A stretch of 38,618 nucleotides of DNA, taken from a virus. The notes beneath the pieces were generated by a model. The model saw nothing but the letters and a program-made list of their open reading frames with translations. It searched no databases and was not told the origin of the DNA. Every line of letters starts with the position of its first letter. The first letter of the stretch is position 1. The stretch lies in the UHGV virus genome UHGV-0392077. The stretch is one strand, 5' to 3'. This document shows positions 12,640-37,898 of this stretch, in pieces. Both the position numbers and the translations under genes were made by a program.

Positions 12640-12970
12640 ATCAGCAGCAGAGCGCAAAGCCGCTCAGAGAGCCAGACAAGCTGCATCTGGTGTGCGTAAG
12701 CTGGAGATTGTGCTTGATGCTCAGGAAATTGAAATGCTGGAGCGTAACTGTGCCACGCGTCGCCCCGGGCATGCGCCTTACGAATTTGGTGAGTATATAG
12801 CGTTACTGATCCGCCAGGATGATGCACGCGTGCGCGGGCGTATAAAATCGATCAGCAGAAAACGTTGCGGTAAGTGCGGCGAGAGAGTTCCAGTTAATTC
12901 ATGCCCGTGTAATGGTGACTCGCAATGCTGGGTGACTAAAGGCTGGCATGAAACGAAATTAATAGTGTGA
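12632..12970 (+). CDS. hypothetical DNA-binding-like protein with C-terminal Cys cluster; candidate late regulator
   Basis: Basic N-terminus AKSAAERKAAQRARQAASGVRKLEIVLDAQEIEMLE and C-terminal C-G-K-C ... C-P-C-N-G; last gene before the late-operon junction. Function inferred from position only. Confidence 0.4.
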   Translation: MAKSAAERKAAQRARQAASGVRKLEIVLDAQEIEMLERNCATRRPGHAPYEFGEYIALLIRQDDARVRGRIKSISRKRCGKCGERVPVNSCPCNGDSQCWVTKGWHETKLIV

Positions 12971-12978
12971 CATGTCAC
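12967..12978. repeat. perfect 12-bp palindrome GTGACATGTCAC (copy 1 of 3)
   Basis: Exact string; contains the TGA stop of the upstream gene; followed by GAAGGTGTTAT. Confidence 0.9.
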
Positions 12979-15370: not shown

Positions 15371-15420
15371 ATCCTCTGATGAGGATAAAACAAAGCCAGC
15401 TCATCGGCTGGCTGTTTGTG
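15371..15420. terminator. bidirectional terminator region between terL (+) and the minus-strand moron gene
   Basis: Two adjacent hairpins (ATCCTC-TGAT-GAGGAT; AGCCAGC-TCATCG-GCTGGCT) with T-rich runs on both strands. Confidence 0.45.
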
Positions 15421-15429
15421 ACATGTCAC
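15418..15429. repeat. perfect 12-bp palindrome GTGACATGTCAC (copy 2 of 3)
   Basis: Exact string, followed by GGTGTTATT; abuts the terminator hairpin and lies 5 nt beyond the stop of gene 15434..15808. Confidence 0.9.
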
Positions 15430-19416: not shown

Positions 19417-20403
19417 ATGGCTGTTAAAGGCTTAACTGCGCTAACGCTGGCTGACTGGGGTAAGCGCGTCGATCCAAACGGGAAAGTCGATAAGATTATC
19501 GAGCTTCTCGGTCAAACTAACCCGATCCTTCAGGATATGCCTTTTGTCGAAGGGAACCTTCCTACCGGACACCGAACCACCATTCGTTCTGGTTTACCTT
19601 CAGCTACCTGGCGTTTGCTGAACTATGGCGTACAGCCAAGCAAATCAACCACAGTGCAGGTAACCGATTCCGTTGGCATGCTGGAAACCTATGCTGAAGT
19701 AGATAAGTCACTGGCTGATCTGAACGGTAATACCGCCGAATTCCGCCTGTCTGAAGACCGCGCATTTATTGAAGCGATGAATCAGCAGATGGCGCAGACG
19801 CTGTTTTATGGTGATTCCAGCGTTAACCCTCAGCAGTTTATGGGACTGTCCTCCCGCTATTCCAGCCTGTCTGCGGGTAATGCTCAGAACATCATTGATG
19901 CTGGTGGCACGGGTACAGATAACACCTCAATCTGGTTAGTGGTGTGGGGCGAAAACACCGTGCATGGCATCTTCCCGAAAGGGCAGAAGGCTGGCATCCA
20001 GATGGAAGATAAAGGCCAGGTGACACTGGAAGATGCTAATGGCGGCAAGTACGAAGGCTATCGCACCCATTACAAATGGGATAACGGACTTGCTCTGCGT
20101 GACTGGCGTTATGTTGTTCGCATTGCAAACATCCATGTCAGCAATCTTTCAGAACCTTCCTCTGCCGCAAATATTGCGAAGTTGATGGTTAAAGCACTGC
20201 ATCGCATTCCAAACCGTGGCATGGGCCGCCCGGTGTTCTACATGAACCGCACTGTAGGCCAGGCTCTTGATCTGCAGTCTCTGGAGAAAACATCTCTGGC
20301 GATTAGCGTAAAAGAGACTGAAGGCGAGTGGTGGACGTCATTCCGTGGTGTACCAATCCGTGAAACTGATGCGCTTCTGGAAACAGAAGCCCGCGTGGTG
20401 TAA
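19417..20403 (+). CDS. major capsid protein
   Basis: About 328 aa following the scaffold gene; ATG 19417 has better SD spacing than ATG 19411. The call rests on position and size. Confidence 0.65.
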   Translation: MAVKGLTALTLADWGKRVDPNGKVDKIIELLGQTNPILQDMPFVEGNLPTGHRTTIRSGLPSATWRLLNYGVQPSKSTTVQVTDSVGMLETYAEVDKSLADLNGNTAEFRLSEDRAFIEAMNQQMAQTLFYGDSSVNPQQFMGLSSRYSSLSAGNAQNIIDAGGTGTDNTSIWLVVWGENTVHGIFPKGQKAGIQMEDKGQVTLEDANGGKYEGYRTHYKWDNGLALRDWRYVVRIANIHVSNLSEPSSAANIAKLMVKALHRIPNRGMGRPVFYMNRTVGQALDLQSLEKTSLAISVKETEGEWWTSFRGVPIRETDALLETEARVV

Positions 20404-24688: not shown

Positions 24689-25152
24689 TGATCGATGTTC
24701 GAATTATTCCCGCTACCGAAGAGCATCTTCAGATGATTTTGCCGGATGTTCGTCAGGCTGATATTGACGAACTGTATGCGGTATCGCTGATGACTACCGA
24801 AGATGCGCTGCGTGTTGGTCTGCGCACTGCGACTATGGCCTGGTCAGGGTTTGCGAACAGAGAACTGGTAACCATGTTTGGTGTATCACCGGCGTCAATG
24901 ATTGGTGGAAATGGTACGCCCTGGCTGGTCGGAACCAGCCATATTGAAAAATATCAGAAGACATTTCTTCGCCACTGCCGCCCTGTATTGCAGCAGATGC
25001 TGGCAGTTTATCCGCGCCTGGAAAACTACGTCGACGAGCGAAACCATGTTGCCAAAGCATGGCTGCACTGGCTTGGATTCAGGCTTGAAGAAGCCGCGCC
25101 TTATGGCGCTCTTGGTCTTAATTTCCACAGATTTCACATGGAGAGAAAATAA
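24688..25152 (+). CDS. hypothetical virion protein
   Basis: 154 aa, start overlaps the upstream stop. Confidence 0.4.
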   Translation: MIDVRIIPATEEHLQMILPDVRQADIDELYAVSLMTTEDALRVGLRTATMAWSGFANRELVTMFGVSPASMIGGNGTPWLVGTSHIEKYQKTFLRHCRPVLQQMLAVYPRLENYVDERNHVAKAWLHWLGFRLEEAAPYGALGLNFHRFHMERK

Positions 25153-25691
25153 TGTGTAACCCAGCCATCGCTTTGGTTGCCGTCACAGTGGCATCCACAG
25201 CCGCGTCAATGTACAGCCAGAGCAAGCAGGCAAAATACCAGTCAGCCATAGCTGATCGGAATGCTGAAATTGCTGAAGCTCAGGCACAGGATTCAATCAA
25301 TCGTGGGAATATTGAAGCGGATCAGCGTCGTCGTGAAATGCGTCAACGCTCAGGCACTGCGGCGGCCACTATGGGGGCTACCGGTGCGGAATTAAGTAGC
25401 GGAACAGCTCTTGACGTTTTTGCGGATAATGCTCAGTTCGGCACTCTTGATGCGTTAACGACAGTGAATAATGCTCAGCGTGAGGCATATGGGTATCAGG
25501 TTCAGGGAATGAATGCTCAGGCACAGGGGGCTGCTGCTCAGTCGGCTGCTAAATCATCGATGACCAGCACTTTGTTAACGGCACCACTAAAAGCATACGG
25601 TGCATACCAGATGGGCGGCGGAACGTGGAGCCCGTTCTCTCAGAAAGCTGCGCCGATTTCTGCTGCTGTTGGCACTCCAACAGGTCGATAA
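25152..25691 (+). CDS. hypothetical virion/internal protein (Ala/Gln-rich)
   Basis: 179 aa, start overlaps the upstream stop (ATGA). Confidence 0.4.
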   Translation: MCNPAIALVAVTVASTAASMYSQSKQAKYQSAIADRNAEIAEAQAQDSINRGNIEADQRRREMRQRSGTAAATMGATGAELSSGTALDVFADNAQFGTLDALTTVNNAQREAYGYQVQGMNAQAQGAAAQSAAKSSMTSTLLTAPLKAYGAYQMGGGTWSPFSQKAAPISAAVGTPTGR

Positions 25692-30021: not shown

Positions 30022-32496
30022 ATGAGACAGGAATGTATACAAGCGGTCCAGCAGGCGGCGCAGCGCACGTTAACGGCGCGAGAAATACAGAACATTGAAG
30101 ACCGCATTTATCGAAATATGCGCTCCATTGCTCGTGATGACCCGATGTCGTGGAGACAACTTTCCGAATCAGAGCGGCTATATCGTGCAGCACAATTGGC
30201 ATCTGAAGAATTACAGCGAGAAGCGGCATTAAAGAAACGTCGTGTGGCCCTCACTATAGCCGCACGTCAGAGATTGGATAAATTTATCAATAGCTATCAA
30301 GGGGCTGATGGGAAACTTGGCGCTCTTAACCGTACTATTGCTTTTAATGCAGACGGTAAATCGAATTTCCTCTCTGTTGAGTCCAGAACAAAAGCCACTC
30401 GTGATTATGCATTGAGTCAATTGCAAGAGGCATTTGAAGCAGTTGATCCTCGCTTTTTTGGCCTGTTTGAAGATGAAGCTGGCGTGCGTGACTTGGTATA
30501 TGAAATGCGAGGGCAAAATACTGGCAATGCTAAAGCAAGAAAAGGTGCTAAGGCGTGGAGAGAAGTGACAGATCTACTGCGCCGCCGGTTTAATGATGCT
30601 GGTGGGGACATTGGCTATCTCGAAAACTGGGGGATCCCTCAACATCATTCTATGGAAAAGGTTGGGGCGGTATCAAAGGATAAGTGGGTTAGCGATGTTA
30701 TAGGTAAGCTGGATCGCAAATATTATATCCGAGCCGATGGACAACTGATGAACGATGCCGAGTTGTCTGCATTTCTTGGAGAGGCTTATAACACGATCGC
30801 TACTGGTGGGCTGAATAAGCTTACTGATACCGGAATGCGAATTTCCGGCGCACGTGCTAACCGTGGTAATGCATCACGACAGATACATTTCAAAGATGCA
30901 GATTCCTATCTGCAATATCAGCAACTTTATGGCGATCGCTCTCTATGGGAAATCATGGTCGGTCACCTGGAAGGTATCAGTAAAGATATTGCACTGGTGG
31001 AAACATATGGCCCAAACCCCGATCATGTTTTCCGCTCCCTTCTTGATCAGGTTAAGGCAGAAACGGCAACAGCTAACCCGAGTAAAACCGGTAAAGTCGA
31101 GCGGCTGGCGAACAACACAGAGAATCTGTACAACTTTATTTCCGGAAAGACACAGCCTGTAGCGAATCCGCACATCGCGCGATGGTCTGACAATATCCGC
31201 AACTGGCTGGTTGCCAGCAGACTCGGATCCGCGTTGCTGTCATCGTTCTCTGATCTTGGAACCATGTATCTGTCTGCGAAGGTTACCAACCTTCCAATGA
31301 ACCAGTTATTCCGCAACCAACTTGAAGCTATGGACCCAACGAACCGTACAGAACTTGCGCGGGCGCGCCGCGCTGGTCTGGCGATGGAATCTCTACTTGG
31401 CAGCGTTAACCGCTGGGCGATGGATAATATGGGGCCGTCAGTGTCTCGTTGGGCGGCGACGGCGGTAATGCGTGCCAGTGGGCTTACAGCATGGTCAGAT
31501 GCGCACAAGCGCGCCTATGGCGTAACCATGATGGGAAGCCTGGGAGAAGTAGTGTCACGGACACCAGACCTTCGTAGCCTCGATGATTCTGATTTTCGTA
31601 TCCTGAAAAGCAAAGGGATTACTGACACAGACTGGAGCGTATGGAAGCTGGCGCAACAGGAGGACTGGGGGAACGGTAATAATACGATGCTGACACCGGA
31701 AAGCATTATGCGTATCCCTGATTCAGCAGTTAAACATCTTGGTGAGCCTGAACGCGTGAAATTTGAGGCAATGCGTAAACTGCTCGGTGCCGTAACTGAA
31801 GAGGTTGATATGGCTGTTATTACACCGGGAGCACGTGAGCAACTGATAACCGGTTCTGGTATTCAGCGTGGAACATGGAAAGGTGAATTAACGAGAAGTG
31901 TTTTCCTGTTTAAATCGTTCCCTATCTCGGTGGTTATGCGTCACTGGTCACGCGCTATGGGTATGCCGTCTGCTGGTGGGCGTGCGGCATATATTGCGAC
32001 GTTTATTGCCAGTACGACCATTCTTGGCGCTTTGTCGCAGCAACTTAACGACCTTGCGTCTGGTCGTAATCCTCGCGAGATGACAGGAGAAGATGCTGCT
32101 AAATTTTGGCTTGGTGCTCTACTGAAAGGTGGTGGTCTTGGCCTTTACGGTGACTTTTTATTGTCAGATCACACTAGGTACGGAAGCGGCGCGCTGGCAT
32201 CGATGCTTGGCCCGGTAGCTGGTCTGGTTGATGACGTAGTGAAGATTGCTCAGGGCATACCGTTAAATGCTGTGGAAGGGAAGAGTGAGCAGACTGGTGG
32301 TGATCTGATTAAGCTGGGGAAAGGTCTGATGCCAGGTGCGAATCTCTGGTACTTGAAGGCGGCTCTCGATCACATGATCTTTAACCAGATGCAGGAGTAT
32401 TTTTCACCAGGCTATTTGCGTAAAATGGAGCAACGTTCGAAGAAAGAGTTTAACCAGACATACTGGTGGCGACCACAGGATGTCACTCCGCAATAA
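30022..32496 (+). CDS. internal virion / ejection protein (824 aa)
   Basis: Long ORF ending the contiguous plus-strand structural block; hydrophobic segments near residues 650-700. Confidence 0.5.
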   Translation: MRQECIQAVQQAAQRTLTAREIQNIEDRIYRNMRSIARDDPMSWRQLSESERLYRAAQLASEELQREAALKKRRVALTIAARQRLDKFINSYQGADGKLGALNRTIAFNADGKSNFLSVESRTKATRDYALSQLQEAFEAVDPRFFGLFEDEAGVRDLVYEMRGQNTGNAKARKGAKAWREVTDLLRRRFNDAGGDIGYLENWGIPQHHSMEKVGAVSKDKWVSDVIGKLDRKYYIRADGQLMNDAELSAFLGEAYNTIATGGLNKLTDTGMRISGARANRGNASRQIHFKDADSYLQYQQLYGDRSLWEIMVGHLEGISKDIALVETYGPNPDHVFRSLLDQVKAETATANPSKTGKVERLANNTENLYNFISGKTQPVANPHIARWSDNIRNWLVASRLGSALLSSFSDLGTMYLSAKVTNLPMNQLFRNQLEAMDPTNRTELARARRAGLAMESLLGSVNRWAMDNMGPSVSRWAATAVMRASGLTAWSDAHKRAYGVTMMGSLGEVVSRTPDLRSLDDSDFRILKSKGITDTDWSVWKLAQQEDWGNGNNTMLTPESIMRIPDSAVKHLGEPERVKFEAMRKLLGAVTEEVDMAVITPGAREQLITGSGIQRGTWKGELTRSVFLFKSFPISVVMRHWSRAMGMPSAGGRAAYIATFIASTTILGALSQQLNDLASGRNPREMTGEDAAKFWLGALLKGGGLGLYGDFLLSDHTRYGSGALASMLGPVAGLVDDVVKIAQGIPLNAVEGKSEQTGGDLIKLGKGLMPGANLWYLKAALDHMIFNQMQEYFSPGYLRKMEQRSKKEFNQTYWWRPQDVTPQ

Positions 32497-32504
32497 AAGG
32501 AGAT

Positions 32505-32630
32505 ATGATGGTTCAAATAACTTTTATTGTACTAATATGTGCAGCGTTTTTATGCTATTCATACATTTTGATAAAAATGGGTTTCAATTGGAACCTCTGT
32601 TGCGTGCAGCGGCATGGTTCGGCTTTGTAG
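32505..32630 (+). CDS. small hydrophobic peptide (about 40 aa), uncertain
   Basis: AAGGAG at 32497-32502 then ATGATG; hand translation MMVQITFIVLICAAFLCYSYILIKMGFNWNLCCVQRHGSAL*. An alternative frame (32480..32668) also encodes a TM segment. Confidence 0.3.
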   Translation: MMVQITFIVLICAAFLCYSYILIKMGFNWNLCCVQRHGSAL

Positions 32631-32715
32631 TATTCGGAATTGTATTGTTCGGAAGAATAATAAAATAACTAGTTAATTTGTGGATTGGTGCTGTTTTTCC
32701 ATGATAGGGGTAATT

Positions 32716-33096
32716 ATGAGAAAAGTATTTTTGATTTTTGGATTTATGCTTCTCGTTGGATGCCAGTCAGCTGCACAGTTTGAAAGAAATATGCTTACGT
32801 GGCGTGGGCAGAGTATAGACGCAATGGTTCAGCAGTGGGGGTATCCTCAGGGAGAGCTTACATCTCCAGATGGAAACAGAGTGTATGTTTACTCAAGCTC
32901 TGGTAGTTATAACGTACCACAAACCACAACGTATAATACTACGTCTAATCTAATTGGTAATACTATATATTCAAACACATATGCAACAACTGATGGCGGT
33001 TATACACTCCATTTCAGTTGCTCTGTTTACGTTGAGTTTGGTGCTGATAAGATTATTAAAAATGTTACATGGCGCGGTAATAATTGCGTTGCGTGA
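32716..33096 (+). CDS. lipoprotein (moron; possible superinfection-exclusion factor)
   Basis: Signal peptide MRKVFLIFGFMLLVGC with lipobox LVG|C; AGGGG 6 nt upstream of ATG 32716; conspicuously AT-rich compared with its flanks. Confidence 0.65.
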   Translation: MRKVFLIFGFMLLVGCQSAAQFERNMLTWRGQSIDAMVQQWGYPQGELTSPDGNRVYVYSSSGSYNVPQTTTYNTTSNLIGNTIYSNTYATTDGGYTLHFSCSVYVEFGADKIIKNVTWRGNNCVA

Positions 33097-33104
33097 CATG
33101 TCAC
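33093..33104. repeat. perfect 12-bp palindrome GTGACATGTCAC (copy 3 of 3)
   Basis: Exact string; contains the TGA stop of the lipoprotein gene and abuts the terminator hairpin. Confidence 0.9.
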
Positions 33105-33130
33105 AGGCCGCTTTCGCGGCCTTGTTTTTA
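33105..33130 (+). terminator. rho-independent terminator of the lipoprotein gene
   Basis: AGGCCGC-TTTC-GCGGCCT followed by TGTTTTT. Confidence 0.6.
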
Positions 33131-33169
33131 ACGAATGCCACCGCCGCCCGGGCGGGAATCCGCAGACAC

Positions 33170-33190
33170 AAAAAAGCCCGCGGCGCGGGC
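33170..33190 (-). terminator. terminator of the minus-strand antirepressor operon
   Basis: GC-rich hairpin GCCCG-CGGCG-CGGGC with TTTTT on the minus strand, directly after the stop at 33191. Confidence 0.5.
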
Positions 33191-33739
33191 TTACTTTTCT
33201 TCAGGTTTGTTGTCTTCAGATTTCTTCTTGATGCTTGGTTTTTGTCTAAGAACGAAAATACCAGCCACTGCAACAACTGTACCGATCACTGTGCCTGCTA
33301 GAACTTCATGACCTGTTAAACCTAATAATGTTGCACAAGCTACTGTAAAAATAGTTGCACTCAGGCCAAACCACTGCCCACGTTTATCTCTATTAATAGC
33401 CCCGTCAAGTGCCTTTTCCTCCATTTTCTGGCGGTGAGCAAACTCCTTCTCCGTCAGCTGGAAGATGCGTTCGGGGGCATCAGGTAAAATATCCTGATAC
33501 CCGCGAAGCAGATAAGGGGGAGGAAGCGGACCCTGAAACGCATGGTGAGCGACAACTATCTCCTGAATTTCAGGGCGATCAAGAACTCTTGTGAAGGCAT
33601 CTGGGTGTTGAATGATCTCGTTACTTAGCCCTTCCTCAACTTCCTCGAACTCAGTTTCTTCGTTATCACTTGGTTGCCCAATAGATTTTTGCATATTTGT
33701 CGAAGGACATTCCTTTAGCTTCTGGTTTTCCTCTTGCAT
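33191..33739 (-). CDS. hypothetical membrane protein (possible superinfection-exclusion protein)
   Basis: Acidic N-terminal region and two C-terminal TM helices (WFGLSATIFTVACATLLGL; VLAGTVIGTVVAVAGIFVL). The true start may be the internal ATG at 33694. Confidence 0.5.
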   Translation of the reverse strand: MQEENQKLKECPSTNMQKSIGQPSDNEETEFEEVEEGLSNEIIQHPDAFTRVLDRPEIQEIVVAHHAFQGPLPPPYLLRGYQDILPDAPERIFQLTEKEFAHRQKMEEKALDGAINRDKRGQWFGLSATIFTVACATLLGLTGHEVLAGTVIGTVVAVAGIFVLRQKPSIKKKSEDNKPEEK

Positions 33740-35592: not shown

Positions 35593-37416
35593 ATGACGGT
35601 CTCAACCGAAGTTGACCACAACGAATACACAGGTAACGGTGTTACGACATCATTTCCGTATACCTTCCGCATTTTCAAAAAATCCGACTTAGTTGTTCAG
35701 GTGTCTGACCTTAACGGTAACGTAACAGTACTAGTACTGGATACCGGTTATACGGTAACCGGTGCGGGCACTTATAGTGGTGGTGCTGTGGTTCTTCCGT
35801 CGCCTCTTGCGGCTGGTTGGCGTATTACGATAGAGCGCGTGCTTAATGTTGTGCAGAAGACTGACCTTCGCAATCAAGGAAAATTTTTTCCAGAAGTTCA
35901 TGAGGATGCCTTTGACTACCTGACAATGTTGATTCAGAAGTGTTTTGGTTGGTTCCGACGTTCACTGATGAAGCCTTCGTTGCTTGCAAAATATTACGAT
36001 GCAAAACAAAACAGAATTTCTAATCTTGCAGATCCTGGCGTACCACAGGACGCTGTAAATAACCGGTCTATGCGCAACTATGTTGATGCTGCTATAGCTG
36101 GTGTTGTTGGTGGTTATGGATGGTTTATTCAGTATGGTTCTGGGGCTATTTACCGTACATTTCAGGACAAGATGCGTGAAGTTTTTAGTGTAAAAGATTT
36201 TGGCGCTAAGGGGGACGGAGTTACTGATGATACAGCTGCGATTCATACGGCATGTAGTGCATTAAACGATTATTTTTTGGCTGATGGTGTTCGTAGAACA
36301 TTAGTTTTTCCTGACGGTACATATCGCACATCAAGTACTGTTGTGTCTCATCCCAACATGTGCATCCATTGTATTGGTAATGTTATATTTCAGAATGCCA
36401 ATAAGGACGATAAATCATTTGCTGCCTTTGAGATACAAGGAGGTGCACATAAAACAGTATTGGGTGTGATAGATGCATATGGTGTCGGATTCATAGTTAG
36501 AGGTAATACTCATAATATAGAGTTTCAGACCATTAGTAATTGTATTGATGGGTTTGTTATTCGTGCAGATATTAATTGGACTCTTGGCACTAAAAATAGC
36601 TTAGATAATAAAATTACTGGTATCCAAATTGGTAAGTGCACCAACGGAATTGTATTTGAACAGAATGGAGATTCACTTATTCAGCAAGGTAATGAAGTGC
36701 GTGTTAACTTTGTGTCTGAAACAAATAATACTGTTCTGTTTAGAAACTACGATGGGTTTTCTCATACAAAACAATCTAACTGGGATTCTAATTTTATAGA
36801 GCTTATTGCATCAGACCCAACAAAATTACCTGGCTCCTCTATGGTAATGAATACTACAAATTATGGTGTGCCAAACCTTACATTTAATATCACAAACTGG
36901 TGCGGTGGTTGGATTGCAAACGCTGGAACCATATGTCTTATTAGGGGGGCATTTACAACATGTAGATTCATGTTTAACTTGGCTGCAGATGTTGGGGTTA
37001 ATGAGGTTGTTGATTCACGTGGAAAATCATCTTTTGGATCTTGTAAGGTAAGTCTTTGCAGGCAAGGAAACCTCGGAAGCGGCTCTTCTTTTTACACTGC
37101 TGTTACTCCAGGTGATATTTTTAATAATGGAATTGCAGTTAAAAATGATAAATTTAGGATTCGTGTAACCATTCCTGATTTAGCTGCAGGTCAAGTATAT
37201 GGCTCATCTTTCTGGCATGTTCTTGTACAACAATCAGGAACATCAAGGGTGCGACTCGAACAAGTAGCTGGTGCCGTACATTCCAGAAATGGAATTCTTA
37301 TCGAACTCACAGATGCTGGAACAGAATTAGTTGGGATGGTGCGCATATGGGTTAAAAATACAACCCAAGACACTATATCTGCAAGAAATATTGATTTTAT
37401 TGTTTCAGTATCTTAA
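35593..37416 (+). CDS. tailspike / receptor-binding protein with pectate-lyase-like beta-helix (putative depolymerase)
   Basis: GGAG 7 nt upstream of ATG. N-terminus EYTGNGVTTSFPYTF looks like a conserved particle-binding domain; middle carries FSVKDFGAKGDGVTDDTAAIHTA, the hallmark of the pectate-lyase-type right-handed beta-helix; the distal half is AT-rich. Confidence 0.75.
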   Translation: MTVSTEVDHNEYTGNGVTTSFPYTFRIFKKSDLVVQVSDLNGNVTVLVLDTGYTVTGAGTYSGGAVVLPSPLAAGWRITIERVLNVVQKTDLRNQGKFFPEVHEDAFDYLTMLIQKCFGWFRRSLMKPSLLAKYYDAKQNRISNLADPGVPQDAVNNRSMRNYVDAAIAGVVGGYGWFIQYGSGAIYRTFQDKMREVFSVKDFGAKGDGVTDDTAAIHTACSALNDYFLADGVRRTLVFPDGTYRTSSTVVSHPNMCIHCIGNVIFQNANKDDKSFAAFEIQGGAHKTVLGVIDAYGVGFIVRGNTHNIEFQTISNCIDGFVIRADINWTLGTKNSLDNKITGIQIGKCTNGIVFEQNGDSLIQQGNEVRVNFVSETNNTVLFRNYDGFSHTKQSNWDSNFIELIASDPTKLPGSSMVMNTTNYGVPNLTFNITNWCGGWIANAGTICLIRGAFTTCRFMFNLAADVGVNEVVDSRGKSSFGSCKVSLCRQGNLGSGSSFYTAVTPGDIFNNGIAVKNDKFRIRVTIPDLAAGQVYGSSFWHVLVQQSGTSRVRLEQVAGAVHSRNGILIELTDAGTELVGMVRIWVKNTTQDTISARNIDFIVSVS

Positions 37417-37481: not shown

Positions 37482-37898
37482 GTGGTGTTTTGTATGTCTG
37501 TAGGTATAACCAGCGAGTCTTTAAACCAATGGCTTAGCATGAGTTCTCTGGTGGCGGTGATAGTTGGAGTTCCTCCTGAGGTTGCTTTGGGGGCTTTGGC
37601 TGGGGCGGTAATTTTTGTTACCTCTGCGGTAGAGTATCCCATTCGTCGTCGTGTACTTTTGTCGATACTTAGCTTTCTCTGCGGACTTCTCTTTTACAAA
37701 CCAGCAGCATCAATTCTTATCGGCATAGCCAGCCTGATCCCTACCATCACGCAGGACTCTTTTGAAAAAGGGATTGTTTTCTCTGCTGGTGCATTCGTGT
37801 CAGCAATTGTTGCTGTGCGTATTGGTATATGGCTCTACCACCGTTCCGATAATCCACGCGAGTTAATTCCGGGGAGAAAAGACGATGGTAGCGCATGA
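37482..37898 (+). CDS. holin-like membrane protein (putative)
   Basis: Several TM helices and a charged C-terminal tail ([18 protein letters not shown]). Start ambiguous: GTG 37482 or ATG 37494. Confidence 0.45.
   Translation: MVFCMSVGITSESLNQWLSMSSLVAVIVGVPPEVALGALAGAVIFVTSAVEYPIRRRVLLSILSFLCGLLFYKPAASILIGIASLIPTITQDSFEKGIVFSAGAFVSAIVAVRIGIWLYHRSDNPRELIPGRKDDGSA

What the first reader, a model, noticed from the sequence alone, without database searches (positions are those of the whole stretch)
32497..33130. AT-rich lipoprotein moron at the end of the ejection-protein block
The 32497-33096 segment is visibly more AT-rich than the flanking structural genes. It encodes a small hydrophobic peptide and a 126-aa lipoprotein (lipobox LVGC), ends with the 12-bp palindrome and has its own terminator. 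Phage lipoproteins in this position (for example T5 Llp or Cor-type proteins) block the receptor used by the phage, giving superinfection exclusion, so this is a candidate exclusion or host-modification gene acquired horizontally.
Basis: partly seen in the sequence, partly recalled or inferred. Interest (0 to 1): 0.6.

Follow-up and report, generated by a model that had tools for sequence, protein, structure and literature searches.

The report
Prophage envelope lipoprotein cassette, function untested
A phiV10/epsilon15-like E. coli prophage carries, right after its DNA-ejection protein genes, a swappable AT-rich insert that encodes an intact outer-membrane lipoprotein of an uncharacterised but widespread family and a broken small membrane-protein gene; it may block superinfecting phages, but nothing computed here shows what it does.

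Summary
Bases 32497-33096 have 37.7% GC, against 49.4% for the upstream gene. The 126-aa lipoprotein gene (32716-33096, lipobox LVGC) is real and under purifying selection. It ends in the palindrome GTGACATGTCAC, and a terminator follows.

Three corrections:
- The "small hydrophobic peptide" is the front half of a conserved ~54-aa two-helix membrane-protein gene. A 1-nt deletion broke it, and all 34 E. coli copies carry that deletion.
- The palindrome and terminator belong to the phage backbone, not to the insert. Relatives with different cargo have the same pair.
- The lipoprotein is not an Llp/Cor protein. Only the signal peptides align.

The lipoprotein has a BamE/BLIP-like fold. It belongs to a large family (3,646 clusters) that Pfam does not hold. 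The slot between the last ejection-protein gene and the palindrome carries different cargo in different relatives, and every cargo seen is sent to the cell envelope. The slot corresponds in position to sieA in P22. In epsilon15-like prophages of several genera the lipoprotein keeps this position. In distant relatives it lies between two ejection-protein genes.

My best reading is exclusion of incoming phage at the envelope (confidence about 0.4). This is inferred from position and analogy only. It is a new member of a known kind, of moderate interest.

The parts
30022..32496 (+). Last of three large ejection/internal-virion protein genes (824 aa, homologue of phiV10 gp20). Its stop codon is the left border of the variable slot.
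   Evidence: phrog_684 virion structural protein, E=0. A T7_gp14-like gene lies upstream at 25152-25691. phiV10 annotation.
32505..32630 (+). 41-aa ORF with one hydrophobic helix. Its first 20 codons (32505-32564) are the N-terminal half of a disrupted two-TM small membrane-protein gene. The rest is out-of-frame read-through.
   Evidence: Intact homologues P0185 (54 aa) and P0186 (52 aa). Against the intact gene pN is 0.16 and synonymous sites are saturated.
32565..32569 (+). Frameshift site. One base is missing from the codon between Tyr (32562-32564) and Phe (32567-32569), at a T4 run. The window reads TAC-AT-TTT-GAT where the intact homologue reads TAT-GCC-TTC-GAT.
   Evidence: Sequences compared. 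The same sequence is in ZX5, APEC O1 and CU532-9. All 34 E. coli copies are at least 99% identical.
32567..32668 (+). C-terminal half of the disrupted two-TM gene, in the -1 frame (FDKNGFQLEPLLRAAAWFGFVVFGIVLFGRIIK). Gene callers list it as part of a 62-aa ORF, 32480-32668.
   Evidence: pN 0.19, pS 0.74 against the intact homologue.
32716..33096 (+). Lipoprotein gene, 126 aa. Signal peptide 32716-32760; lipidated Cys16 codon 32761-32763; mature protein 111 aa, rich in Thr/Ser/Asn/Gly/Tyr. Cys102 and Cys124 are invariant.
   Evidence: phrog_3716 at E=5e-64. AF2 model with pLDDT 85.9. BamE/BLIP-like fold.
33093..33104 (.). 12-bp palindrome GTGACATGTCAC, the conserved right border of the slot. 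It supplies the lipoprotein's TGA stop codon.
   Evidence: Same site in phiV10, phiv142-3, Klebsiella and Salmonella prophages and Ecol_542.
33105..33130 (+). Intrinsic terminator of the late/ejection operon (stem GGCCGC-TTTC-GCGGCC, then a T tract). It is a backbone element.
   Evidence: The equivalent terminator is annotated in phiV10 at 19505-19522.

Best explanation
The segment is replaceable cargo in a hypervariable slot of a phiV10/epsilon15-like (Uetakevirus) prophage. The slot lies between the stop codon of the last ejection-protein gene and a conserved palindrome plus terminator.

The cargo here has two parts. The first is a copy of a ~54-aa two-TM inner-membrane protein gene, inactivated by a frameshift. 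The second is an intact lipoprotein gene.

Shown: the lipobox, Gln at +2, the predicted fold, purifying selection and the synteny. Inferred from these: the protein is exported, lipidated at Cys16 and sorted to the outer membrane. There it would present a 111-aa domain in or near the periplasm, made of two helices packed on a long antiparallel sheet (BamE/BLIP-like), probably with a Cys102-Cys124 disulfide.

Also inferred: the domain binds a conserved envelope component, or the ejection-protein conduit of an incoming phage. This would block a post-adsorption step, or a secondary receptor, for superinfecting phages. It would be an envelope-level exclusion function like P22 SieA or T5 Llp, carried out by an unrelated protein.

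Operon structure says the gene is transcribed at least with the late genes. Expression in the lysogen is not established.
For: Slot and mobility: flanks are identical and cargo differs in phiV10, phiv142-3 and ZX5. Only 34 of 446 backbone-bearing E. coli genomes carry this cargo. The lipoprotein is 79% identical next to ejection proteins that are either 94% or 28% identical.

All five cargo types seen are sent to the envelope: a 46-aa two-TM protein; a two-TM protein plus a 99-aa membrane protein; this cassette; a 186-aa protein with a signal peptide; the lipoprotein alone in Salmonella.

The gene is functional: pN 0.13-0.33 against pS 0.65-0.87, and dN/dS about 0.15 where it can be computed. 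Cys16, Cys102, Cys124 and the G-N-x-C motif are invariant.

Synteny with ejection genes holds across Escherichia, Salmonella, Klebsiella, Raoultella and a low-GC host, and in a Burkholderia phage. In high-GC relatives the gene sits between the gp16-like and gp17-like genes.

Positional analogy: P22 sieA lies between gene 16 and gene 9 and blocks the ejection-protein conduit (PMC10883804).
Against: There are no expression or phenotype data. No sigma-70-like promoter stands out above background (4 found, 2.7 expected by chance). No terminator separates the cassette from the late operon, so expression in the lysogen is unproven.

The protein is not homologous to any known exclusion protein. PADLOC gives no hit.

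Lipoprotein type is uncoupled from the type of both the ejection protein and the tailspike. This argues against a specific fit to either phage part.

At least 2 of the 34 cassette-bearing genomes show a second match to the backbone terminator. This is a weak hint that related prophages are not excluded.

The wider family occurs in many non-phage and other phage contexts, so its function may be general.
Confidence: 0.4

Rival explanations
1. Host-benefit (lysogenic conversion) lipoprotein unrelated to phage exclusion. It would be an outer-membrane lipoprotein that changes envelope properties, for example serum or stress resistance, adhesion or OMP biogenesis, in the way Bor or TraT do.
For: The E. 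coli carriers listed include extraintestinal pathogens such as APEC O1, IAI39 and CE10 O7:K1. The BamE/OsmE-like fold is typical of envelope housekeeping and stress lipoproteins. The family is widespread outside phages, often in accessory regions. The gene is an autonomous unit in some phages.
Against: The strain bias may only reflect the host range of the prophage. The tight, repeated placement next to ejection genes, including between them, is hard to explain for a pure host-fitness gene. There is no similarity to Bor or TraT.
Confidence: 0.2
2. Late lytic-cycle helper. The gene would be co-expressed with the ejection proteins and act in the dying cell. It could mask a secondary receptor so that released virions are not lost on debris or on cells already infected (the second role described for T5 Llp), or it could modify the outer membrane before lysis.
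For: No terminator lies between the 824-aa gene and the cassette. In L009, L010 and L040 the gene overlaps the stop codon of the upstream gene, and in Salmonella it starts 9 nt after the ejection-protein gene, which suggests late co-transcription.
Against: It is dispensable for the phage: phiV10 and phiv142-3 lack it. In L035 and Burkholderia vB_E332 it is uncoupled from the late operon. Spanins are encoded separately in the lysis cassette.
Confidence: 0.2
3. Essential infection or assembly factor of the ejection apparatus, not an accessory gene.
For: Conserved synteny with the ejection genes; embedded between them in L038-L040.
Against: It is absent from close, viable relatives (phiV10, phiv142-3, HEMP4) that have nearly identical ejection proteins. 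tblastn over 50,697 phage records finds it in only 4. A lipoprotein exported through Sec/Lol cannot be packed into a capsid assembled in the cytoplasm (established knowledge).
Confidence: 0.04
4. Decaying or non-functional insert, such as a chance ORF or a pseudogene remnant.
For: The neighbouring small gene is frameshifted in every E. coli copy. The E. coli copies are nearly clonal, at 99.4% identity or more.
Against: The lipoprotein ORF is intact in all copies. Synonymous sites are saturated against pN of 0.13-0.33 across genera, and the Cys and Gly-Asn motifs are invariant. The AF2 model is confident.
Confidence: 0.03

Closest known systems
P22 SieA (superinfection exclusion protein A of P22-like phages)
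   Same: Same genomic position in a short-tailed temperate phage: between the last ejection-protein gene and the antirepressor/tailspike region. Like SieA it is an accessory gene, present in only some relatives and sent to the envelope. SieA blocks the ejection-protein conduit (PMC10883804).
   Different: SieA is a 3-4-TM inner-membrane protein with the motif FxRYPxEAxxFNK. The protein here is a soluble beta-rich domain on an outer-membrane lipid anchor. There is no sequence similarity, and a SieA-like function has not been tested. The small two-TM gene next to it is the closer analogue in topology, but it is frameshifted.
T5 Llp / Cor family (phrog_1119), outer-membrane lipoproteins that inactivate FhuA
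   Same: A phage-encoded lipoprotein with a classical lipobox and no Asp at +2 (outer-membrane sorting), small, with conserved cysteines.
   Different: hhalign aligns only residues 1-19, the signal peptide. The PHROG family differs. The mature domain is 111 aa against 61. The fold is BamE/BLIP-like. The gene sits next to ejection genes, not next to the receptor-binding protein gene as llp sits next to oad in T5. The lipoprotein type does not vary with the tailspike type.
BamE / SmpA_OmlA, OsmE and BLIP-like lipoproteins
   Different: No Pfam SmpA_OmlA match, even at E of 1 or less, in 56 family members. Identity is about 10%. The sheet is much longer, with three extra long strands. The conserved disulfide and the GNxC C-terminus are specific to this family.
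Moron (Hendrix/Juhala sense)
   Same: Present or absent among otherwise near-identical genomes, lower GC than the flanks, non-essential, followed by a terminator.
   Different: The terminator is the backbone operon terminator. No convincing promoter of its own was found in this window. In some relatives the gene is translationally coupled to the late operon.

Membership tests
T5 Llp / Cor superinfection-exclusion lipoproteins (phrog_1119) | Sequence homology of the mature domain | tested here: not met
   hhalign of family alignment A1 against T5 Llp aligns only residues 1-19, the signal peptide. The PHROG scan puts the query in phrog_3716 only and T5 Llp in phrog_1119.
T5 Llp / Cor superinfection-exclusion lipoproteins (phrog_1119) | Lipoprotein signal peptide, lipobox and outer-membrane sorting signal | tested here: met
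   MRK-VFLIFGFML-LVGC16, with Gln rather than Asp at +2. Cys16 is invariant in 32 close homologues and nearly invariant (at least 90%) in the 56-sequence set. This is a rule-based reading; no SignalP-type tool was available.
T5 Llp / Cor superinfection-exclusion lipoproteins (phrog_1119) | Binds and inactivates the phage's own outer-membrane receptor (FhuA) | not testable with these tools
   Needs adsorption and binding assays. The secondary receptor of these phages is unknown.
T5 Llp / Cor superinfection-exclusion lipoproteins (phrog_1119) | Gene adjacent to the receptor-binding protein gene | tested here: not met
   The gene abuts the ejection-protein gene. The tailspike gene (35593-37416) is 2.5 kb away, beyond several reverse-strand genes. 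In T5, llp is next to oad.
Moron | Present in some and absent from other closely related genomes | tested here: met
   (34 of 446 genomes).
Moron | Base composition differs from the surrounding genome | tested here: met
   GC 0.377 against 0.489. GC3 0.315 against 0.42-0.58. The gene is lower in GC than its flanks in 10 of 11 lineages examined.
Moron | Own promoter | tested here: inconclusive
   Only 9-of-12 consensus matches, no more than chance gives. Homologues in L035 and Burkholderia vB_E332 must have their own promoter because of their orientation.
Moron | Own terminator | tested here: not met
   The terminator at 33105-33130 and the palindrome are conserved in relatives with other cargo.
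BamE / SmpA_OmlA (PF04355) | Match to the family profile | tested here: not met
   No Pfam hit for the query. None of 56 family members matches SmpA_OmlA at E of 1 or less. There are only weak DUF6491, DUF4309 and CAP_assoc_N hits.
BamE / SmpA_OmlA (PF04355) | Two-helix plus beta-sheet fold on a lipid anchor | tested here: met
P22 SieA | Gene located between the last ejection-protein gene and the tailspike gene | tested here: met
   PMC10883804 section 13.
P22 SieA | Inner-membrane protein with 3-4 TM helices and the motif FxRYPxEAxxFNK | tested here: not met
   The lipoprotein has no TM helix after its signal peptide. The small ORF has two hydrophobic segments, no such motif, and is frameshifted.
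o-spanin (Rz1-like) | Small outer-membrane lipoprotein gene embedded in, or next to, the i-spanin gene in the lysis cassette | tested here: not met
   The lysis genes start at 37482. phiV10 has separate Rz/Rz1 genes and lacks this lipoprotein.

The most novel reading that the evidence does not exclude
The lipoprotein is the outer-membrane or periplasmic counterpart of P22 SieA. On this reading a BamE/BLIP-like lipoprotein stops the trans-envelope ejection conduit of epsilon15-like podophages from forming or working. It could do so directly, or by occupying a conserved host partner such as the BAM complex. It would be the first outer-membrane lipoprotein known to exclude short-tailed phages at the DNA-delivery step, and the founding function for a family of 3,646 clusters with no Pfam model. 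Its repeated linkage to ejection genes, from hosts of 37% GC to hosts of 62% GC, would be the trace of that function.
Probability: 0.15. Interest if true: 0.65.

Novelty: new member of a known kind. Interest (0 to 1): 0.4.

Why it matters
If the lipoprotein excludes phages, it would give epsilon15/phiV10-like phages, which are common prophages of E. coli, Salmonella and Klebsiella, their first defined envelope-level exclusion gene. It would also assign a function to a large, unnamed lipoprotein family. A further gain is a defined variable slot with fixed borders in which to look for more envelope-acting phage genes. This bears on phage therapy host range, because lysogens may resist related therapeutic podophages. 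It also bears on how short-tailed phages build their DNA conduit. If the lipoprotein does not exclude phages, it remains one more hypothetical prophage lipoprotein.

Tried and rejected
- Pfam, NCBIfam and PADLOC scans of the lipoprotein and the small ORF found no family. Rfam found nothing of note in 32300-33400.
- The Foldseek afdb50 library was unavailable.
- A genome scan with the diverse alignment A3 failed because it had no conserved stretch. The scan was rerun with A1.
- Chromosomal neighbourhoods of distant family members showed no recurring partner gene, so they gave no functional lead.
- The LF82 "Gally" prophage transcriptome paper proved irrelevant: Gally is P22-like. The ZX5 genome paper does not discuss this gene.
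- My first GC3 figure (0.433) and the first tblastn "lipo" query used a frame one base off. The correct gene start is 32716, and the figures were recomputed.
- Spanin role: rejected. The lysis cassette with Rz/Rz1 lies elsewhere, and phiV10 has spanins without this gene.
- Sequencing error as the cause of the frameshift: rejected. The same sequence is in 34 complete genomes, in phage ZX5 and in IMG/VR contigs.
- Programmed -1 slippage at the A5 run (32573-32577) could in principle restore the two-TM protein. I found no evidence for it and leave it as speculation.

Full report
**What the window is.** The window is almost a whole phiV10/epsilon15-like (Uetakevirus) prophage. The region 32497-33130 is 100% identical to a prophage of E. 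coli O4:H5 CU532-9 and 99.5% identical to phage vB_EcoP_ZX5 and to prophages of APEC O1, IAI39 and CE10. Upstream lie a T7 gp14-like gene (25152-25691) and three large genes of 837, 600 and 824 aa. The 824-aa protein (30022-32496) is phrog_684, "virion structural protein", the homologue of phiV10 gp20. Downstream, on the reverse strand, are a DUF2335 membrane-protein gene, a Bro-N antirepressor gene and small ORFs. The tailspike gene (35593-37416) and the lysis genes follow.

**Checking the observation.** Bases 32497-33096 have GC 0.377. The window mean is 0.489 and the upstream gene 0.494. Only 1.8% of 600-bp windows are as low. In the correct frame the lipoprotein gene has GC3 0.315 and GC1 0.425, against 0.42-0.58 and 0.55-0.66 in structural genes. 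Both codon choice and amino-acid make-up contribute: 48% of the mature protein is Thr, Ser, Asn, Gly or Tyr. The gene runs from ATG 32716 to TGA 33094-33096. It encodes MRKVFLIFGFMLLVGC..., with lipobox LVGC16 and Gln at +2. Homologues all start at the equivalent Met, which supports ATG 32716 rather than the GTG at 32680. The palindrome GTGACATGTCAC occupies 33093-33104 and contains the stop codon. A 7-bp GC stem and a T tract follow at 33105-33130.

**The small "peptide" is a broken gene.**
- The 41-aa ORF (32505-32630) has one hydrophobic helix. A second hydrophobic segment lies in the -1 frame, ending at 32668.
- A protein search with the two halves joined found intact 52-54-aa homologues, for example MSHIIFIVIISGAFLCYSYAFDKKGFSLEPQARAAAWFGFVVFGLVLLGRLVGN.
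- These intact genes lie directly after the 824-aa gene in related phages.
- DNA comparison places a 1-nt deletion at 32565-32569. The window reads TAC-AT-TTT-GAT where the intact gene reads TAT-GCC-TTC-GAT.
- Each half, read in its own frame, shows saturated synonymous change with pN of only 0.16-0.19. The gene was therefore coding for most of its history.
- All 34 E. coli copies, phage ZX5 and the IMG/VR copies share the lesion. It is not a sequencing error.
- phiV10 and phiv142-3 have unrelated small two-TM genes at the same position.

**The terminator and palindrome are backbone.**
- phiV10, phiv142-3, the Klebsiella phage ST11-OXA245phi3.2, Salmonella prophages and E. coli Ecol_542 all carry the palindrome at the same place. 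In the E. coli relatives the same terminator follows it; the Klebsiella and Salmonella versions have a different hairpin there. Their cargo differs.
- About 446 of 5,426 complete E. coli genomes match the 43-bp palindrome-terminator stretch. Only 34 carry this cargo.
- The cargo types seen are: a 46-aa two-TM protein (phiV10); a two-TM protein plus a 99-aa polytopic membrane protein (phiv142-3); the frameshifted two-TM gene plus the lipoprotein (this window); a 186-aa protein with a cleavable signal peptide (Ecol_542, K_EC180); and the lipoprotein alone (Salmonella).
- Every cargo is sent to the cell envelope. The slot is thus a hypervariable site with fixed borders.

**The lipoprotein itself.**
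- It has no Pfam, NCBIfam or PADLOC match. It belongs to phrog_3716, function unknown.
- Close homologues (35-79% identity) occur in Klebsiella, Salmonella, Shigella, Enterobacter, Raoultella and Citrobacter. The Salmonella form was indexed in 930 blocks of the contig collection.
- A profile search of 1.84 billion cluster representatives found 3,646 clusters at E of 0.001 or less and 1,053 at 1e-10 or less. Most sampled members are lipoproteins of 110-150 aa with the pattern C-A-T...W.G...WGYP...P.GN.VYVY...C.T.FE...GN.C.
- Distant members occur in many Gram-negative phyla, in mixed and often accessory contexts with no recurring neighbour.
- Across genera pN is 0.13-0.33 against pS of 0.65-0.87. 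Cys16, Cys102, Cys124 and Gly121-Asn122 are invariant or nearly so.
- AlphaFold2 gives a confident model (pLDDT 85.9): two helices and a long five- to six-stranded antiparallel sheet.
- Foldseek agrees weakly on BamE. Among viral models it finds SmpA/OmlA lipoproteins of Pseudomonas phages.
- A profile search of PDB sequences gives only 4h0a at E=1e-4. Family members give only sub-threshold DUF6491, DUF4309 and CAP_assoc_N hits in Pfam.
- It is a BamE/BLIP-like fold, but it is not a member of SmpA_OmlA.

**Not Llp/Cor.** T5 Llp was taken from the T5 record. It aligns with the family profile only over the signal peptide, and it belongs to phrog_1119, "Cor superinfection exclusion protein". This protein does not match that family. 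Size, fold and gene position also differ.

**Context across phages.**
- In epsilon15-like prophages of E. coli, Salmonella, Klebsiella, Raoultella, an unidentified enteric (L009) and a 37%-GC host (L035), the gene always lies between the last ejection-protein gene and the antirepressor/tailspike region.
- In L009 and L010 it follows, and overlaps, a ~100-aa two-TM protein gene.
- In three high-GC viral contigs (L038-L040; 30-39% identity) it lies between the gp16-like and gp17-like genes, abutting or overlapping the upstream gene.
- In Burkholderia phage vB_E332 it is in the same slot on the opposite strand. In L035 it sits behind the operon terminator and a convergent gene. In those two phages it must be an autonomous transcription unit.
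- More distant relatives sit elsewhere in phage genomes.
- The gene is lower in GC than its flanks in 10 of 11 lineages examined, for example 0.32 against 0.37 and 0.54 against 0.62. Low GC is partly a property of the family, not only a mark of recent import.
- Horizontal movement is nevertheless clear. A 79%-identical lipoprotein sits next to ejection proteins that are 94% identical in one lineage and 28% in another.
- The identical E. coli lipoprotein is paired with an endosialidase tailspike in APEC O1 and a pectate-lyase-like tailspike in CU532-9. The Salmonella form is paired with two tailspike types.

**Mechanism.**
- Shown: an intact, conserved lipoprotein gene with an outer-membrane sorting signal, a protein-binding type of fold, a mobile slot, and linkage to the ejection genes.
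- Inferred: the protein acts in the periplasm or at the outer membrane, on a conserved host component or on the incoming ejection conduit, to exclude superinfecting phage.
- The strongest support is positional. P22 sieA occupies the equivalent place between gene 16 and gene 9, is likewise present in only some relatives, and blocks the gp16/gp20 conduit (PMC10883804).
- Against this: no promoter stands out. The gene is probably read through from the late operon. Its type is uncoupled from the ejection-protein and tailspike types. At least 2 of the 34 carrier genomes show a second backbone match.
- I give envelope-level exclusion about 0.4. A host-benefit lipoprotein and a late lytic-cycle helper get about 0.2 each. 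The other rivals are unlikely.

**Verdict.** It is wrong on family (not Llp/Cor), on the terminator and on the small peptide. This is a new member of a known kind, a prophage accessory envelope lipoprotein. It is of moderate interest because the family is large, unnamed and repeatedly tied to podophage ejection genes.

Noticed in passing
window 12967-12978, 15418-15429, 33093-33104: The exact 12-bp palindrome GTGACATGTCAC occurs three times; about 0.002 occurrences are expected by chance. All three lie at module ends. The first is at the stop codon of the phiV10 p55-like regulator gene, just before the terminase genes. The second is right after the terminator of the large terminase subunit gene. 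The third is at the end of the ejection operon. phiV10 has it at the two equivalent internal sites (2262 and 19493). It marks the right-hand joint of every cargo type in the slot, and its TGA often supplies the cargo's stop codon. It may be a protein-binding site or a recombination boundary. Its function is unknown.
   Followed up: partly
window 33191-33739 (-), terminator 33174-33192: A DUF2335 membrane-protein gene (phrog_3996, which PHROGs files under 'moron') converges on the cassette and has a bidirectional terminator. It is also variable. APEC O1 and K_EC180 have instead a 53-aa 'transmembrane anchored protein' and other ORFs. A second variable region therefore lies directly beyond the palindrome and terminator.
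   Followed up: partly
L080 944-1504 (E. coli Ecol_542) and L081 (K_EC180): In another set of E. coli Uetakevirus prophages the same slot holds a 186-aa protein with a cleavable signal peptide (WP_000643933.1). This is a further uncharacterised cargo sent to the envelope.
   Followed up: no
window 32573-32577: An A5 run lies just after the frameshift site. In principle Lys-tRNA could slip by -1 there (AAA to AAA) and restore the two-TM reading frame. No evidence was found for or against this.
   Followed up: no
window 35593-37416: The tailspike gene is as AT-rich as the cassette (GC 0.398, GC3 0.288). Only its N-terminal part is conserved among relatives, which carry endosialidase, GDSL-lipase or P22-tail type C-terminal parts. 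This is the usual modular exchange of tailspikes.
   Followed up: partly
L009 7705-8004 and L010 7675-8004: In two other genera a ~100-aa two-TM protein gene lies directly before the lipoprotein gene and overlaps it. The pairing of a small inner-membrane protein with this outer-membrane lipoprotein recurs with unrelated small proteins, which hints that the two act together.
   Followed up: no
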